NCBI GenBank assembly: GCA_048885525.1
Contig: JBHLLP010000054.1
Span: forward strand, 1 to 22,211
Direction of reading: 5' to 3'
Length of the DNA: 22,211 nt
Source: Candidatus Hermodarchaeota archaeon
GTDB lineage: Archaea; Asgardarchaeota; Lokiarchaeia; Sigyniarchaeales; SOKP01
The translations under genes were made by a program, and so were the position numbers. Shown piece by piece: positions 6,886 to 15,942 of this stretch (positions are counted from its first letter, which is position 1; each line of letters starts with the position of its first letter). The notes below the pieces were generated by a model that was not told where the DNA came from, did no database searches, and saw nothing but the letters and a program-made list of their open reading frames with translations.

Positions 6886-7458
6886 TTGGAAGTATTCTTG
6901 CCATTTCTCGAAATAAAATTAGCGAATATAATCTTTGACCCAAAGGTGCAGAATTATTGTGTTAATCCTAATTTTAAATGCCCCAGTTATGGACATTCGT
7001 GGGCTTGTCCACCTGAAGCACCATACTTAGAACATGAAGTCTCTACATATAAAAAATTTTACCTTGTTTATGTTAAATTTGATTTAAATTCATACGTTGA
7101 AGAAGTAAAAGCAAAAAATCCTAAAAGAAATGAAGATCATATACGAAACGCTTTCTTTATGAAAAATTTATTGCGAGACAATTTAGAAAAAGAAATTCTA
7201 AATTTCTTTGAAGTAGTACAAATTTCCTATGAAGAAAGACTTATTTTATGGGATGGCTTTTGTAGATTATGTTATAACAAAAAAGATAAAGGATGCACTT
7301 ATGATGCTGGTGAACCTTGTCGCTATCCTAACCAAAAAAGATATTCTATGGAAGCCATAGGAATTGATGTAACTCAAACTGTTAAAAATTTACATTTTAA
7401 TATAGAATGGCCTCCTAATGATTTTGTGTATCGTTTTGGTCTAGTATGTTTTAAATAA
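6886..7458 (+). CDS. DUF2284 family predicted metal-binding protein
   Basis: Cys pattern C-x5-CPSYGHSWACPP ... GFCRLC ... C ... CRYP ... RYSMEAIGIDV ... FGLV. TTG start. Confidence 0.88.
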   Translation: MEVFLPFLEIKLANIIFDPKVQNYCVNPNFKCPSYGHSWACPPEAPYLEHEVSTYKKFYLVYVKFDLNSYVEEVKAKNPKRNEDHIRNAFFMKNLLRDNLEKEILNFFEVVQISYEERLILWDGFCRLCYNKKDKGCTYDAGEPCRYPNQKRYSMEAIGIDVTQTVKNLHFNIEWPPNDFVYRFGLVCFK

Positions 7459-7482
7459 ATAGTAATAAAGAATAGAGAAAGA

Positions 7483-8815
7483 TTAAAAATCTATATCTTC
7501 TAATACAATAGTTTCTCTTCTATCAGGTCCTATCGAAACCATAGCAATATCTGTTTTAAGCAATTCTTTAATAGATTGAATATATATTTTCATTGTCTCT
7601 GGGAGAGCATCATATCCTTTTCTGGCACAATCTAACCATTCATCTCTGGTCTTTTCTTCCCAACCTTCAAATTTTTCATAAATTGGAGTACATCTTTCAA
7701 TAATTTCATGGTGGATAGGCCAACTTTCAAGTTTTTTTCCCTCTAACTCATAACCAGTACAAATGTTAATAGGACTTATTCCTTGTAATGCATCTAAAAG
7801 AGTAATGATAATTTTATCAATACCATTTATCATTATACCATATTGTATGTTGAAAAGGTCAAGCCATCCAACTCTTCGTGGTCTACCAGTTACAGTACCA
7901 TATTCATTACCTTGCTCTCTAATTTTTTCAGCGGTTTTGTTAAATAATTCTGTGGGGAATTTACCTTCGCCAACTCGAGAAGTATAAGCCTTAATTATTC
8001 CAACAATTTTGCCAATCTTTTTTGGAGGGATACCAGTTCCAGCACTAATACCTAAAGCGTTAGCATTAGAAGAAGTACCATAGGGATACATCCCAAAATC
8101 AATCGCCAATAGATTTCCTTGAGCTGCTTCAAATAAAACTTTTTTACCTTCTTCTATAGATTTATTTAGATAATAGGCAGAATCAATTACAAAAGGTTTA
8201 AGTTTTTCACCAAATTCTTTATATTCTTGATAAATTGATTCTAATGATTCATTCCAATCAGGATCATATACATTTATTAATTCCTTTTTAATTTTAAATA
8301 ACTTCTCTAATTTTGGCTTTAAAATCTCAGGATTAATCAAGTCAAAGATTCTTAAACCCCAACGAGCTGCTTTATCCGAATAGGTCGGACCAATTCCTCT
8401 TTTAGTTGTTCCAGCAGCATAATTTTCTTTTGTTTTTTCTTCTAATCCATCTAAAATACGATGAAAAGGAAAAATTACATGAGCTGTAGAGCTTAGCTTT
8501 AAATTAATTTTTTTATTTAAATTCTTGAGATTTTCAATCTCTTCAAGTAAAACTTTCGGATCAACTACACAACCGTTTGCTATTACTCCTTCTTTTTCTA
8601 AGGGAGCTCCAGAAGGCATTAATTTAAATTTATATTTTACTCCATTGGCATTTATTGTATGACCAGCATTATTTCCTCCATTATATCTGACAACTATATC
8701 TGCCTTCTGTGCTAAAAAATCAACAAATTTGCCTTTGCCTTCGTATAGGGTTAGTTTGCGAACTGCTCAACTAAACTCCCCACGAAAGGCCTATAACGGC
8801 AATCGTATTACTCAT
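7483..8815 (-). CDS. purA: Adenylosuccinate synthetase, split: exon 1 8815-8776, exon 2 8744-7483; 433 aa after removal of the 31-nt insert
   Basis: The ORF track gives only 8619-7483, but the frame stays open upstream (EGKGKFVDFLAQKADIVVRYNGGNNAGHT), and another frame starting at ATG 8815 gives MSNTIAVIGLSWG. Joining G(8776) to AC(8744-8743) yields GLSWG-D-EGKGK, the PurA P-loop. Downstream motifs GTTKRGIGPTYSDK, FEAAQG, YPYGTSS, KAYTSRVGEG, EYGTVTGRPRRVGWLD and SIGPDR are intact. Confidence 0.96.
8745..8775 (-). other. Putative 31-nt bulge-helix-bulge-type (archaeal tRNA-like) intron in purA mRNA: UUUAGUUGAGCAGUUCGCAAACUAACCCUAU
   Basis: Removal restores both the frame and the catalytic Asp codon. 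Central 4-bp helix GGGG (8781-8778) / CCCU (8750-8747); 3-nt bulges AG^U and AU^A; intron stem UUAGUU/AACUAA; exon-exon stem GCCUUUCG/CGAAGGC. Stops occur in all three frames. Confidence 0.85.
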
Positions 8816-9007
8816 ATCTCATATTCCTTTTGATAATTTTGTATAATCTAATTCTTAGTTTAGTCCAAAAATGATTATTATATACAGTTTAAAAAATTTT
8901 TGGTAGGTAAAAATGGAAATATAATTAATAGGTAATAATTTTTATATTCGAATTTTCATGTAAGTCATAATCTTATTTTTTAATTAAAAAGCCCGCTTCG
9001 AAATAAT

Positions 9008-9931
9008 TTGCCTGCTTTTAAGAAAACCATTCTAATTGATCTTGCTCATAATGAAATGTTAAACATAGATGAAGAAGAATTCAACGATTTTCTAAATCTC
9101 CTTAAAAGAATAGACCTCAAAATAAAAAAAAATGAAGATGGACATATTACAAAAGAAATTCTAGAGAATATTGATCTTTTAATCCTTGGTAATCCAATTG
9201 ATGATTTCTTTTCAAGTTTAGAAATTAAACAAATCGTTGATTATGTTAGGACTGGAGGTGGTTTAATATTATTGAGTGAATATGGAGCAGATTATCTTCA
9301 GAAAACTAATTTAAATGATATCGCTGGAAAATTTGGTATTTTTTTCGAGAAAAACTTAATCAAAGAGATGAACAAAACAAATCAAAACTGTACTAGTATC
9401 ATACACATTCAAGAGTTTCCAAAGCATATTATTACTAAAAGTTTGAGAGAAATGATAATTGGGGGTGCTTGTTCATTAGATTTAGGTAAAGGAGCAAAAA
9501 TTTTATTACAAACAAATGAACTTTCTGTATGGTCGGAAGTTTACAATAATACTTCTGAAGAATGGACAAAACAAGAAGAAAAACAACAAATTATTGCCGC
9601 ATATGCTGAATTTGGCCAAGGAAAAGTGGTAGCAATTGGAGATATCGATATTTTTACGTCAAATTCTAGAATAGGTATAGATTCTTTAGATAATCAAAAA
9701 TTCATACAAAATATAATCAATTGGTTAATAAATCCTGTCGAGGAATCAAAAGTAGTCTCATTTATTCTTAATCAGCTTGGTGATCTTCAATACGAAATTA
9801 GAGAAACTAACAAAGTTTTAAATAATATAATCGAAACTATCACAATTTTAGAAAAAAGAATTACATATTTAGAAAAAAAATCAAAGATATATATGGAACC
9901 ATCAGATCAAGAAGAAAGTTTTGAAACTTAA
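9008..9931 (+). CDS. GIFT-domain (GldG/IFT52-like, DUF4350-like) protein with a C-terminal coiled coil
   Basis: Pattern ILIDLAHNE...DLLILGNP...FSSLEIKQIVDYVRTGGGLILLSE...NLNDI...FGI...GKVVAIGDIDIF...DNQKFIQNIINWL. Heptad-like tail LGDLQYEIRETNKVLNNIIETITILEKRITYLEK. No signal peptide seen. TTG start. Confidence 0.75.
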   Translation: MPAFKKTILIDLAHNEMLNIDEEEFNDFLNLLKRIDLKIKKNEDGHITKEILENIDLLILGNPIDDFFSSLEIKQIVDYVRTGGGLILLSEYGADYLQKTNLNDIAGKFGIFFEKNLIKEMNKTNQNCTSIIHIQEFPKHIITKSLREMIIGGACSLDLGKGAKILLQTNELSVWSEVYNNTSEEWTKQEEKQQIIAAYAEFGQGKVVAIGDIDIFTSNSRIGIDSLDNQKFIQNIINWLINPVEESKVVSFILNQLGDLQYEIRETNKVLNNIIETITILEKRITYLEKKSKIYMEPSDQEESFET

Positions 9932-13285: not shown

Positions 13286-14479
13286 TTAATTACCAAATTT
13301 TCTTTCTAAGATATCTTCTAAGAGTTCTGCTAATTTTATAGCAGGTATATCTAGCAGAGTTATTTCTAGATGTCTTCCACGAGTAGCCTCTTCAATTCTT
13401 ACTGTTTTAGACGCAACAACTTTGAGTTGAGTCAGTTGACGTACGTATTTTCTAAAACTCATTTTTACATGAGGCTCTATTGAAAAATTTTCAGATACAG
13501 CTTTATATTCCTCAAAAGCATCATCAACTAAAGTGAATGGTTCACCATTATTAATTAACGATCGCACAATCCCATATAAAGCTAGGATTTCTTGATCTTT
13601 TAAATCATCTACAATATCATTTCTAAAAGTAGGATATACATCATTAGCCGCCTCTCTAATAATGTCTGCAGTTATACGATCAATATTTTCCTTATCACAA
13701 TAAGATCCGCTTTTTCGCAAAATTTCAATCCCATGTCTCATATTTTTGTGATCAGCTACGATTTGTGAAATCATTGTTAAAAGTTCCTCACTGATAACAT
13801 TTTCTTTAAATGCCATATCGCTACGATATTGCAGGATCTGCATTGATTCATCAAAATCATAAGGTTTAAGTTTAATTTTCTCGTTTAACCTACTTAATAT
13901 TCTTTCATTCTCAATTGTCATCCAATCTTTACTTCGAGAAATTAATAATAACGACAATTTCGCATTTTGATGCCCAAATGTTTCAGCTATATCCAAGAAT
14001 GCTAGTACTTCATCTGGTTTTAGAAGATGAATCTCATCAATAATTAATAACATATATCCTTTTTCCCGAATTAGTTGTGAGAGGATTAATTTTAATGCCT
14101 CGTCGTCACTGAATCCACGACCGCTGCCATGTTGATATTTAGCGAGAAGTTCTCTGATAATCTTACTTTTAGAACGGAAATTGATACAATTAAAATATTC
14201 TAAAAATAGTTTAACATCATTTTCAATTGCAATTGTTCTAAAATTTTTTCCAAAATAGCGCGCTGTACATGTTTTTCCCACTCCTCCTTTTCCTAGAATC
14301 AAGCAATTAATAGAAGGTTGTTCCTTTTCTTCCATAATTCTTCTATAATTAAATATCAATGTTTTTAAAACTTCATCGCGACAATATAGTTTTTCTGGTA
14401 CATAACTCAAGTCAAGGGAACTTGCTTGTCTAAAAACCGATTTCTTCATGAATTGCTTTCTGAATTCATCCTCATCCAT
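13286..14479 (-). CDS. cdc6: Orc1/Cdc6 family AAA+ replication initiator
   Basis: LDLSYVPEKLYCRDE N-terminal motif, Walker A GKGGVGKT, YFNC, Walker B IIDEIH, ILSRL, LKPY, sensor-2-like NMRHGIEIL, and a C-terminal winged helix ending in RGR. Confidence 0.93.
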   Translation of the reverse strand: MDEDEFRKQFMKKSVFRQASSLDLSYVPEKLYCRDEVLKTLIFNYRRIMEEKEQPSINCLILGKGGVGKTCTARYFGKNFRTIAIENDVKLFLEYFNCINFRSKSKIIRELLAKYQHGSGRGFSDDEALKLILSQLIREKGYMLLIIDEIHLLKPDEVLAFLDIAETFGHQNAKLSLLLISRSKDWMTIENERILSRLNEKIKLKPYDFDESMQILQYRSDMAFKENVISEELLTMISQIVADHKNMRHGIEILRKSGSYCDKENIDRITADIIREAANDVYPTFRNDIVDDLKDQEILALYGIVRSLINNGEPFTLVDDAFEEYKAVSENFSIEPHVKMSFRKYVRQLTQLKVVASKTVRIEEATRGRHLEITLLDIPAIKLAELLEDILERKFGN

Positions 14480-14534
14480 GGTAAATCGAGAAAACCCGGT
14501 ATATAATTTTGATTTATAAGTAATAAAAGAACAA

Positions 14535-14562
14535 ATTAAGTATAAATTTTCTTATACTTGTA
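14535..14562. promoter_or_regulatory. Candidate Xer recombination (dif-like) site or operator palindrome: ATTAAGTATAA-ATTTTC-TTATACTTGTA
   Basis: Perfect 8-bp inverted repeat AAGTATAA/TTATACTT around a 6-bp spacer, with the ATAA-N6-TTAT core typical of dif sites. It lies about 460 nt from the 3' end of the Xer-type recombinase gene. Confidence 0.45.
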
Positions 14563-14729
14563 AAATTTTGTTTTATCTATAAAAAATTTATTAATTTAAA
14601 AAATTGAAGTTTGATAGTTTTTGTTCTAAAATATTGAATGATATAAATCTCTAACGTAAAGTTTTATATATTCACTTTTTATAAGTTATTTTATATATAA
14701 TTGTATTGAAAATTTTGAAAAATAGAATT

Positions 14730-14870
14730 ATGAAAAAATTAATTCGAAAATTAAGATACCGAAAATATAAGAAGGAAGCTTTAATTAAACAGTTCGAAGA
14801 AGAAAAATTAAGAAATCCCCAAGATTTTATATGTAATATAAGAGGTCAGGGTTGCGGATTGGGTCGTTAA
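14730..14870 (+). CDS. Candidate 46-aa small protein MKKLIRKLRYRKYKKEALIKQFEEEKLRNPQDFICNIRGQGCGLGR
   Basis: ATG at 14730 to TAA at 14870, too short for the ORF track. TATA-like ttatatataa at 14691-14700 about 30 nt upstream, T-rich tract after the stop, and purine-rich coding-like composition. Confidence 0.55.
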   Translation: MKKLIRKLRYRKYKKEALIKQFEEEKLRNPQDFICNIRGQGCGLGR

Positions 14871-15018
14871 AAATTTTATTTTATATTTTTTTTATTAAAC
14901 CTCATGTAGTTTTTTCTTTATCTACGAATTTATCAACATAAATTTTCCAGAAATAGAAAGTTGCTTTATCTGAACTAATTTTTAACAATTCGAGATAAAT
15001 GAAGTCATGCTAAAAGAC

Positions 15019-15942
15019 TTAAATTTTTTCATTATTGCTCAAAGGATGCATTTGAGAATAAGATTCTTTTAGCCTAGTTATATCGTTTTTCGCATAAATT
15101 CGGGTAGTACTTGGGCTTGAATGACCTAAAATATCTTGTAGTTCGCTAATATCCATACCTGATCGTCTTAGATGTGTTGCTCCTGTGTGTCTTAGAATGT
15201 GCGGGGTAATAATTTTAGAATCTGCAAATCCACATTTCTCTTTAATTGTTTTTATGTCTGTTTGAACAACACGAGGACTTAACTTTTGGTTCCTTGTATT
15301 TACCAATAGATAATCTTCAGACTCGTAGTTTATCCTATTTTTAAGATGTTCTTTAAAAATTTCTAATGTTTTCTGATCAACAGGTACAATTCGTTCCTTA
15401 TTTCCTTTTCCTCGGAGTCTTACATAACCTCTCTCAAAATCTATATCTCTAATTCTTATATTACACAGCTCACTTACTCTGGCCATCGTCGAATATAATA
15501 ATCTAATAATTAAATAATATCGGCTACTTTTTCGAGAGTTAAATAATTGTCGATCCTTTAATTTATTAAAAATTACTTCTATATCAGCTATTCTTAAAAA
15601 CTTGGGTAGACTCTCTTCAAGCTTTATCTTCGGTGTTTTAATTGTACTCATAGGATCTTTTTCCATAAACTCATTTAAAGTTAGAAATTTAAAATATGAA
15701 CGCAGTGAAGCAATTTTTCTCCCTATCCCTTTTTTTGTATAGTTCATCTCATTTAGTTTTTTAAGAAAGTAACGTATTTTTTGGCGTAGTAGGGGAGAAT
15801 TGATTTGTATATCCCCTACTAGTTCAATAAACTTTTGAAGATCATAACGATATGCCTTAATAGTGGAGGAAGCACATCCTTCTTCAATAGATTTTGAGGC
15901 TAAAAAGTCTTCTATAAAATCAGAAATTTTATAGTTTTCCAT
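15019..15942 (-). CDS. xerA: Xer-type tyrosine recombinase (XerA/XerC-like)
   Basis: 307 aa with an N-terminal core-binding domain (STIKAYRYDL...RKIASLRSYFKFL) and a complete catalytic set: ARVSEL (R), GKGNKER (K), TPHILRHT (HxxR), LGH, TTRIY (Y). Confidence 0.88.
   Translation of the reverse strand: MENYKISDFIEDFLASKSIEEGCASSTIKAYRYDLQKFIELVGDIQINSPLLRQKIRYFLKKLNEMNYTKKGIGRKIASLRSYFKFLTLNEFMEKDPMSTIKTPKIKLEESLPKFLRIADIEVIFNKLKDRQLFNSRKSSRYYLIIRLLYSTMARVSELCNIRIRDIDFERGYVRLRGKGNKERIVPVDQKTLEIFKEHLKNRINYESEDYLLVNTRNQKLSPRVVQTDIKTIKEKCGFADSKIITPHILRHTGATHLRRSGMDISELQDILGHSSPSTTRIYAKNDITRLKESYSQMHPLSNNEKI

What the first reader, a model, noticed from the sequence alone, without database searches (positions are those of the whole stretch)
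8737..8790. Bulge-helix-bulge-type intron splitting the catalytic Asp codon of purA: candidate endonuclease-spliced mRNA intron in a core metabolic gene
Seen in sequence: the minus strand reads ATG AGT AAT ACG ATT GCC GTT ATA GGC CTT TCG TGG GGA G [TTTAGTTGAGCAGTTCGCAAACTAACCCTAT] AC GAA GGC AAA GGC. Deleting the bracketed 31 nt (8775-8745) gives MSNTIAVIGLSWGDEGKGK and a 433-aa full-length PurA. Unspliced, translation stops after 14 aa (..WGV-TAG), and the insert has a stop in every frame (TAG, TGA, TAA). Independently of the protein argument, the RNA folds into a 4-bp helix GGGG/CCCU with two 3-nt bulges, AG^U and AU^A, on opposite strands. It is closed by a 6-bp intron stem (UUAGUU/AACUAA) and an exon-exon stem (GCCUUUCG/CGAAGGC). 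One unpaired U (8782) lies opposite the 3' bulge, so this is a slightly relaxed BHB/BHL form. Established: archaeal splicing endonuclease (EndA) cuts after the second nucleotide of each bulge, which here is exactly the pair of boundaries that regenerate GAC. The Asp of WGDEGKG is catalytic in PurA. BHB introns are typical of tRNA and rRNA, and the well-known mRNA case is crenarchaeal cbf5. Inference: this is a real mRNA intron in a purine-biosynthesis gene of a probable Asgard archaeon, making AMP synthesis depend on the tRNA-splicing machinery. Gene callers would misannotate such genes as N-terminally truncated, so more cases could be hidden. I am not aware of a described purA intron but cannot search the literature.
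Basis: partly seen in the sequence, partly recalled or inferred. Interest (0 to 1): 0.95.

Follow-up and report, generated by a model that had tools for sequence, protein, structure and literature searches.

The report
tRNA-type mini-intron in Asgard purA
The only adenylosuccinate synthetase gene (purA) of this Asgard (Hodarchaeota-type) archaeon is interrupted, inside the codon of its essential aspartate, by a 31-base intron shaped like those cut out of tRNAs, so its mRNA almost certainly has to be spliced, which papers I could search report for the coding part of only one other archaeal gene (cbf5).

Summary
On the minus strand, purA is split into exon 1 (8815-8776, 13 codons plus G), a 31-nt insert (8775-8745) with a stop in every frame, and exon 2 (8744-7483). 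Removing the insert rebuilds GAC and gives a 433-aa PurA with GLSWGDEGKGK.

- **Gene is alive.** It is the only purA in a 99%-complete genome. Intron-bearing orthologues have intact reading frames and dN/dS of 0.04-0.12.
- **Conserved position.** The same insert sits at this site in 17 distinct sequences from the genus and from metagenomes. Other congeners and all other families searched lack it exactly at the predicted junction.
- **Structure.** The bulge-helix-bulge fold lies 0.4-3.6 kcal/mol above the minimum free energy. Its central helix pairs in 16 of 16 sequences, and six pairs show compensatory changes.
- **Machinery.** The genome encodes two EndA paralogues and RtcB.
- **Not alone.** I verified four more 30-32-nt introns of this type in other genes of this genome.
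- **Misannotation.** Public annotation truncates such purA genes to 424 aa, starting inside the intron.

No RNA data were available, so splicing itself is inferred. This scan has reported similar mRNA introns before on other Asgard DNA. Verdict: a real BHB intron in an mRNA, and a new member of a known kind.

The parts
8776..8815 (-). purA exon 1: ATG (8815-8813), 13 codons MSNTIAVIGLSWG, plus the first base (G 8776) of the Asp codon
   Evidence: The peptide is conserved, with synonymous changes, in all 17 intron-bearing sequences. Intron-less relatives have the same N-terminus fused in frame.
8745..8775 (-). 31-nt BHB intron with stops in all three frames. It is unique in the genome.
   Evidence: It sits at the identical site in 10 congeneric genomes, 1 further MAG and 6 metagenome contigs, at 30-32 nt. 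DNA contigs from runs of two studies span it without a deletion.
7483..8744 (-). purA exon 2: AC completes GAC (Asp), followed by 419 codons and the stop (7485-7483)
   Evidence: P0001. Pfam PF00709 positions 10-416, E 2.6e-151. It is the only purA match in the genome. dN/dS is 0.04-0.12.
8778..8781 (-). Central 4-bp helix, 5' strand (GGGG, from the Trp-Gly codons)
   Evidence: Pairs with 8747-8750. It is paired in 16 of 16 aligned sequences.
8747..8750 (-). Central 4-bp helix, 3' strand (CCCU, inside the intron)
   Evidence: G-U becomes G-C in two sequences.
8775..8777 (-). 5' bulge A-G-U. The predicted cut is between G 8776 and U 8775.
   Evidence: Unpaired in the MFE fold of nearly all homologues. 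The cut rule is from PMC2738675.
8744..8746 (-). 3' bulge A-U-A. The predicted cut is between U 8745 and A 8744.
   Evidence: Unpaired only in the BHB-constrained fold, which is 2.0 kcal/mol above the MFE. In the MFE fold, A-U pairs with G8783-U8782.
8751..8774 (-). Intron hairpin: stem 8774-8769 with 8756-8751, an inner G-C/C-G pair, and a 5-nt loop
   Evidence: Five of its pairs show changes on both sides across homologues. One metagenome variant (L062) has an entirely different hairpin at the same site.
8783..8790 (-). Exon-exon helix, 5' strand (GCCUUUCG). U 8782 next to it is unpaired.
   Evidence: The pair at alignment columns 14/60 switches U-A to C-G at two synonymous sites (CTT/GAA to CTC/GAG) in three sequences.
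8737..8743 (-). Exon-exon helix, 3' strand (CGAAGGC)

Best explanation
The 31 nt at 8775-8745 are a bulge-helix-bulge (BHB) intron in the purA pre-mRNA.

**Proposed mechanism.**
1. The transcript folds so that exon-1 bases GGGG pair with intron bases CCCU. This places two 3-nt bulges on opposite strands, four base pairs apart, flanked by an intron hairpin and an exon-exon helix.
2. The archaeal splicing endonuclease cuts between the second and third nucleotide of each bulge. Here that enzyme is probably a two-subunit EndA.
3. RtcB joins the exons.
4. The junction G + AC rebuilds the codon of the essential Asp in GDEGKG, giving a 433-aa adenylosuccinate synthetase.

Without splicing, translation ends after 14 residues.

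**Shown here:** the sequence anatomy, conservation and covariation of the fold, selection on both exons, exact intron-less alleles, and the presence of the enzymes.

**Inferred:** that cleavage and ligation occur, and that EndA and RtcB carry them out.

The intron was probably gained once at the base of this Hodarchaeota-type genus and then lost precisely several times.
For: 1. **Frame.** Only this 31-nt deletion restores GDEGKG and a 433-aa protein. 77 of the 120 best relatives are 433 aa, and 69 of those carry GLSWGDEGKGK at residues 9-19.
2. **Single copy.** There is one purA match in a 99.3%-complete genome.
3. **Living gene.** All 11 intron-bearing genomic orthologues keep a 419-codon exon 2. 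dN/dS is 0.04-0.12 at dS 0.6-2.9. Exon 1 stays an ATG-started 13-codon frame with synonymous changes.
4. **Presence and absence.** The insert is at the same site in 17 distinct sequences. Twelve congeners, four further close relatives and all genomes of the other families whose loci I read lack it exactly at the predicted junction.
5. **Structure.** The central helix is paired in 16 of 16 sequences. Six pairs change on both sides, against 0-3 for slid controls. One variant has a wholly different hairpin at the same place. The BHB fold is within 0.4-3.6 kcal/mol of the MFE in all sequences.
6. **Frozen junction codons.** They are GGA-GAC in 11 of 11 intron-bearing genes. In 25 intron-less genes, GGA occurs 5 times and GAC 10 times.
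7. **Chance.** The background for such a motif at a fixed position and length is 3.3e-5.
8. **Machinery.** There are two EndA-family ORFs, one most like the catalytic subunit of the Aeropyrum heterotetramer, and RtcB.
9. **Same class elsewhere in this genome.** 30-32-nt inserts with the same geometry restore DKHS-T-GGVPGNK in an AMP-phosphorylase-like gene and WD-IGGQ in a Ras-family GTPase. They also restore DDEP-D in a receiver domain and HxH-x7-S-x2-D in a JAMM protein. Pfam profile coordinates or paralogue alignments continue across each junction.
10. **Precedent.** The cbf5 intron also uses a relaxed BHB, a heteromeric EndA, and splits a catalytic-residue codon (PMC2738675).
Against: - There is no RNA-level evidence. 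I have seen no spliced junction, excised circle or peptide.
- The canonical 3' bulge is not in the minimum-free-energy fold. An extra unpaired U lies opposite it, so the motif is relaxed.
- In two deep-branching variants (L015, L063) the exon-exon helix is not formed.
- The sequences are related, so covariation and codon counts overstate independence.
- Six of the 17 sequences were found with a pattern that required TGGGGAG and CCCYAW. They cannot speak to conservation of those bases.
Confidence: 0.88

Rival explanations
1. The insert is removed from the mRNA, but not by EndA and RtcB. Another nuclease/ligase pair or some other RNA-level process would do it.
For: No enzyme assay was possible. 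The 3' bulge is not formed in the MFE fold.
Against: - The geometry is two 3-nt bulges four base pairs apart. Cuts after the second bulge nucleotide land exactly on the junction fixed by protein homology. That is the EndA signature (PMC2738675).
- EndA and RtcB are present.
- Other introns in this genome have the same geometry.
- At 31 nt the insert is far too small for a self-splicing intron.
Confidence: 0.05
2. The gene is not spliced. Translation starts inside or after the insert, as public annotation has it (an ATA start giving a 424-aa product), and a truncated PurA works without the N-terminal GLSWGD.
For: GenBank and other callers annotate 424-aa products beginning MLTLYEGKGK.
Against: - That product lacks the essential Asp of GDEGKG (Asp13 in E. 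coli; PMC12884076).
- Exon 1 would then be non-coding. Yet it keeps an ATG, 13 conserved residues and synonymous-only drift in 17 sequences.
- The intron-internal 'codons' differ freely between species.
Confidence: 0.03
3. It is a pseudogene, with purA inactivated by an insertion.
For: The frame is broken after 14 codons.
Against: - It is the single copy in a 99%-complete genome.
- dN/dS is 0.04-0.12, and exon 2 is intact in 11 of 11 species at near-saturated synonymous divergence.
- The insert itself is structurally conserved.
Confidence: 0.01
4. The ribosome passes over the insert by translational bypassing or frameshifting.
For: There is a stop codon just after the break and a hairpin in the gap, as in phage T4 gene 60. 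That comparison is from my own knowledge and was not tested.
Against: - The Asp codon is split G|AC, and a ribosome cannot assemble a codon from separated bases.
- There is no matching GGA landing codon. The nearest GGN would delete Asp-Glu.
- The covarying helices match EndA geometry, not a bypass signal.
Confidence: 0.01
5. It is an assembly or sequencing artefact.
For: None.
Against: The insert is present in 11 separately assembled genomes and 6 metagenome contigs, with diverged sequence. It is also in contigs of runs from two studies that span it without a gap.
Confidence: 0.005

Closest known systems
BHB intron in the cbf5 (pseudouridine synthase) pre-mRNA of Crenarchaeota (Watanabe 2002; Yokobori 2009, PMC2738675)
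   Same: - It is an endonuclease-type intron inside a coding sequence.
- It has a relaxed BHB, with cuts between the second and third bulge residues.
- The host has a heteromeric EndA.
- The intron disrupts the codon of a catalytic residue.
- Its distribution is patchy and explained by precise secondary losses.
   Different: - The gene is purA and the phylum is Asgard/Promethearchaeota, so the intron is not homologous.
- cbf5 splicing was shown with cDNA and enzyme assays. Here splicing is inferred.
- The purA intron is one of several similar micro-introns in the same genome.
BHB introns of archaeal tRNA and rRNA precursors
   Same: The motif, the predicted enzymes (EndA, RtcB) and the size range are the same. 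ARAGORN calls introns of 9-78 nt, plus three longer ones, in 21 of the 34 tRNA genes it finds in this genome.
   Different: The substrate is an mRNA. The exon halves of the motif must also encode protein, so the helix bases are constrained by codons (Trp-Gly supplies GGGG).
Intron in the 5' UTR of HVO_1309 of Haloferax volcanii (PMC7714728)
   Same: It is a BHB intron in an mRNA, cut by the splicing endonuclease.
   Different: It lies in the untranslated leader, so the reading frame does not depend on it.
Unconventional splicing of HAC1/XBP1 mRNA in eukaryotes (Ire1 cleavage, ligation by tRNA ligase/RTCB)
   Same: It works in a similar way. A very small intron defined by RNA structure is cut from an mRNA by a protein endonuclease, the exons are joined by the tRNA ligase, and the reading frame changes. 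This comparison is from my own knowledge plus PMC13149111.
   Different: The nuclease is Ire1, not an EndA/TSEN enzyme. That splicing is a regulated stress switch, and no regulation is shown here.

Membership tests
Archaeal BHB (splicing-endonuclease) intron | Two 3-nt bulges on opposite strands separated by a 4-bp helix | tested here: met
   GGGG/CCCU with bulges AGU and AUA. The helix is paired in 16 of 16 homologues. The form is relaxed: it lies 2.0 kcal/mol above the MFE fold, has one extra unpaired U, and the 3' bulge is partly paired in the MFE fold.
Archaeal BHB (splicing-endonuclease) intron | Cleavage between the 2nd and 3rd bulge nucleotides yields the functional mature RNA | tested here: met
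   These two bonds are the only pair that rebuilds GAC and GDEGKG. Intron-less orthologues read exactly like this junction. The rule is from PMC2738675.
Archaeal BHB (splicing-endonuclease) intron | Flanking helices (exon-exon and intron) that hold the motif | tested here: met
   The intron helix has 5 covarying pairs and the exon helix has 1 covarying pair at synonymous sites. The exon helix is missing in L015 and L063, as in relaxed motifs.
Archaeal BHB (splicing-endonuclease) intron | Host encodes the splicing endonuclease and the RtcB ligase | tested here: met
   There are two PF01974 ORFs (104.5 and 70.2 bits) and one PF01139 ORF (570.8 bits). Best PDB relatives are archaeal EndA chains.
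Archaeal BHB (splicing-endonuclease) intron | Spliced RNA and excised (circular) intron exist in cells; EndA cuts the substrate | not testable with these tools
Adenylosuccinate synthetase (PurA, Pfam PF00709) | Full-length match to the family profile with the N-terminal GDEGKG loop and its essential Asp | tested here: met
   Exon 2 covers profile positions 10-416. After removal of the insert, exon 1 plus the junction codon supply GLSWGD, as in most of the 433-aa relatives. Asp13 is essential (PMC12884076).
cbf5-type pre-mRNA intron (as a homologous family) | Located in cbf5 of Desulfurococcales/Sulfolobales | tested here: not met
   The gene and lineage are different. It is the same kind of intron but not the same intron.

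The most novel reading that the evidence does not exclude
The purA intron may be one visible member of a genome-wide set of about 30-nt endonuclease-spliced micro-introns in protein-coding genes of Hodarchaeota-type and other Asgard archaea. These introns often lie inside catalytic-motif codons and are gained and precisely lost within a genus. That would be a routine mRNA-splicing layer, carried out by the tRNA-splicing enzymes, in the archaeal lineage closest to eukaryotes. It would couple core metabolism to RNA-processing capacity and be hidden by gene callers.
Probability: 0.6. Interest if true: 0.9.

Novelty: new member of a known kind. Interest (0 to 1): 0.8.

Why it matters
In the papers I could search, endonuclease-type introns inside an archaeal coding sequence are reported for a single gene, cbf5, in one phylum.

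A conserved intron of this type in the sole purA of an Asgard archaeon, together with four more in the same genome, has three consequences:
- Protein-coding genes of the closest archaeal relatives of eukaryotes can depend on RNA splicing by the tRNA machinery.
- It offers a tractable case for asking how such introns arise, are lost and perhaps regulate expression. The intron is small, the gene is essential, and natural intron-plus and intron-minus alleles exist within one genus.
- It exposes a systematic annotation error. About a quarter of the closest purA entries in public databases are truncated to a start codon inside the intron.

Tried and rejected
- **RNA evidence.** No RNA holder was listed for window 7400-9000. 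Only DNA contigs could be laid.
- **Spliced product in protein databases.** No relative above 87% identity was found, so no spliced form of this organism could be recognised.
- **Genome-wide census 1.** A strict BHB scan plus an open-frame compatibility test gave compatible to incompatible counts of about 1:2, as expected by chance, with no peak at 30-32 nt.
- **Census 2 and 3.** Scans with a stronger intron hairpin, with or without an exon helix, recovered the AMP-phosphorylase intron but were otherwise noise.
- **Census 4.** The paralogue-anchored scan was mostly spurious hits and recovered the JAMM intron. I therefore give no intron count per genome.
- **Rfam and tRNA scans of the window.** Nothing was found.
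- **Mobile or repeated element.** The intron sequence has no other copy in the genome within 7 mismatches.
- **Chance hits.** The metagenome pattern also hit 11 loci (7 distinct sequences) that do not encode purA, and I discarded them.
- **Other readings rejected.** Translational bypass, pseudogene, artefact and alternative start were considered and rejected. See the rival explanations.

Full report
**Observation.** Reading the minus strand gives the following layout:
- ATG at 8815-8813.
- Thirteen codons, MSNTIAVIGLSWG, followed by a G at 8776.
- A 31-nt insert at 8775-8745.
- AC at 8744-8743, followed by GAA GGC AAA GGC.

Read unspliced, the frame ends after 14 residues. The insert has TAG, TGA and TAA in three different frames. 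Exon 2 is a stop-free run of 419 codons. It matches the adenylosuccinate synthetase profile PF00709 from position 10 to 416 (E 2.6e-151).

Removing the 31 nt rebuilds GAC and gives GLSWGDEGKGK in a 433-aa protein. That is the length of 77 of the 120 closest database clusters, and 69 of those have exactly that motif at residues 9-19. A shift of the boundaries by one base gives Tyr or Val instead of Asp. The register is therefore fixed by the protein alone. The Asp is the essential Asp13 of E. coli PurA (PMC12884076).

**The fold.**
- GGGG 8781-8778 pairs with CCCU 8750-8747.
- The bulges are AGU and AUA.
- The intron stem is 8774-8769 with 8756-8751.
- The exon-exon stem is 8790-8783 with 8743-8737.
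- U 8782 is unpaired.

It is not the minimum-free-energy fold. RNAfold keeps the 5' bulge but pairs G8783-U8782 with the first two bases of the 3' bulge. Forcing the canonical motif costs 2.0 kcal/mol. Across 17 homologues the cost is 0.4-3.6 kcal/mol. A motif of this strictness occurs at 3.3e-5 of positions for a 31-nt length in this 29% G+C genome. The purA site passes that scan.

**Organism and gene status.** The closest named records are MAGs titled Candidatus Hodarchaeota or Promethearchaeota, so the organism is an Asgard archaeon. The genome is 3.58 Mb in 87 contigs and 99.3% complete. It holds one purA match.

**Comparative evidence.**
- *Genomes.* Of 22 congeneric genomes with a full-length match, ten, including this one, carry a 30-31-nt insert at exactly this site. 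Twelve read straight through as TGGGGN GAY GAR. So do all genomes of the three other families whose loci I read.
- *Additional sequences.* One further MAG and six metagenome contigs add distinct intron variants. One of them is 32 nt long, with an entirely different hairpin at the same place.
- *Tree.* On a PurA tree the intron-bearing genes are interleaved with intron-less ones inside the genus clade and are absent outside it. Well-supported branches force at least three changes. One gain and several precise losses is the simplest reading, as was proposed for cbf5 (PMC2738675).
- *Selection.* All 11 genomic intron-bearing genes keep an intact 419-codon exon 2. Pairwise dN/dS is 0.04-0.12 at dS 0.6-2.9. 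Exon 1 keeps its ATG and its peptide, with synonymous drift.
- *Junction codons.* These are frozen as GGA-GAC in 11 of 11 intron-bearing genes. Among 25 intron-less genes, GGA occurs in 5 and GAC in 10.

**Covariation.** Figures are for a 16-sequence alignment (11 sequences).
- The central helix is paired in every sequence.
- Six pairs change on both sides, against 0-3 when the partners are slid.
- 87.8% of cells pair, against 28-46% for slid versions.
- One covarying pair lies in the exon-exon helix. It uses two synonymous third positions, CTT/GAA to CTC/GAG.

The sequences are related, and six of them were found with a pattern that fixed part of the motif. These numbers support the structure but are not independent trials.

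**Machinery.** The genome encodes two EndA-family ORFs of 198 and 205 aa.
- The first is most similar to the chains 3p1z_B and 3ajv_B. From memory, I take these to be the catalytic subunit of the Aeropyrum pernix heterotetramer.
- The second is most similar to 1a79 and 5x89. By eye it lacks the catalytic His.

Two paralogues fit the two-subunit architecture. A recent preprint reports that architecture in most Asgard genomes (10.64898/2026.10.13.758758). It is also the type known for cutting relaxed motifs (PMC5829648 abstract). RtcB is present.

**Not an isolated case.** Notes of this scan pointed to other candidate mRNA introns in this genome. I checked four myself.
- AMP-phosphorylase-like gene, C6:109044-109073, 30 nt. 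Removal restores DKHS-T-GGVPGNK. Exon 2 starts at position 11 of PF00591.
- Ras-family GTPase, C39:27861-27892, 32 nt. Exon 1 covers profile positions 1-54 and exon 2 covers 57-160.
- Receiver domain, C52:11536-11566 on the minus strand, 31 nt. Exon 2 starts at profile position 12, after ILIVDDEP.
- JAMM protein, C7:62562-62592, 31 nt. Removal restores HxH-x7-S-x2-D. Paralogue alignments run across the junction.

These rest. All four have a 4-bp helix, two 3-nt bulges and an intron hairpin. My attempts at a full census were limited by noise.

**Literature.**
- In the library searched, the only coding-sequence BHB intron described is in crenarchaeal cbf5. One 5'-UTR intron is described in Haloferax (PMC7714728; PMC2738675).
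- A 2026 preprint on Asgard tRNA introns does not treat mRNAs.
- Searches for Asgard or Hodarchaeales mRNA introns found nothing.
- This scan has reported similar mRNA introns before on other Asgard, Bathyarchaeia and Nitrosopumilus DNA. Two of those reports claim RNA support. I did not test them.

**Annotation consequence.** About 29 of the 120 best database clusters begin MLTLYEGKGK or similar. In these, an ATA or other start codon was called inside the intron and the product is truncated, mostly to 424 aa. Several are named adenylosuccinate synthase in GenBank.

**Verdict.** The insert is real, conserved and shaped as an EndA substrate. The gene it interrupts is alive and single-copy, so the mRNA must be repaired, most likely by EndA and RtcB. 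What is missing is direct RNA or enzyme evidence. It is a new member of a known kind, in a lineage and a gene class that make it of high interest.

Noticed in passing
G000:C6:109044-109073 (+), locus L052: A 30-nt BHB intron in an AMP-phosphorylase-like gene. Removal restores DKHS-T-GGVPGNK. Exon 2 starts at position 11 of PF00591 and exon 1 carries PF02885.
   Followed up: yes
G000:C39:27861-27892 (+), locus L053: A 32-nt BHB intron in a Ras-family small GTPase, between LLLWD and IGGQ. Ras profile positions 1-54 lie in exon 1 and 57-160 in exon 2.
   Followed up: yes
G000:C52:11536-11566 (-), locus L054: A 31-nt BHB intron splitting an Asp codon after ILIVDDEP of a response-regulator receiver domain. 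Exon 2 starts at profile position 12.
   Followed up: yes
G000:C7:62562-62592 (+): A 31-nt insert inside the JAMM metalloprotease motif. Removal gives HSHPGF-KVMMSHID, with the exact HxH-x7-S-x2-D spacing. Two paralogues align across the junction.
   Followed up: partly
G000:C7:103980-104009 (-), locus L055: A candidate 30-nt intron between a zinc-ribbon exon and a LOR/scramblase-like exon (profile from position 32). The two may instead be separate genes.
   Followed up: partly
Database proteins P0002, P0004, P0006-P0008, P0019, P0021 and others: Public annotations of intron-bearing purA start at a codon inside the intron (products begin MLTLYEGKGK, 424 aa) and are named adenylosuccinate synthase. 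This is a systematic truncation.
   Followed up: yes
Whole genome G000: ARAGORN finds only 34 tRNA genes, and calls an intron in 21 of them. Many tRNA genes are probably interrupted in ways the program misses, as a 2026 preprint reports for Asgard archaea.
   Followed up: no
Alignment A2, columns 14 and 60 (window 8786 and 8740): Two synonymous third-codon positions (Leu CTT/CTC and Glu GAA/GAG) change together in three sequences. This keeps a pair of the exon-exon helix, so RNA structure appears to constrain silent sites.
   Followed up: partly
window 9008-9931 (+): A 307-aa ORF next to purA matches the IFT52 GIFT domain (E 1.4e-10) and ABC_transp_aux. This is probably a GldG-like auxiliary protein rather than anything ciliary.
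   Followed up: no
window 13286-15942 (-): An Orc1/Cdc6-type AAA+ gene lies next to a tyrosine recombinase (phage-integrase family), with roughly 500-nt non-coding gaps on either side. It could be an origin region or an integrated element.
   Followed up: no
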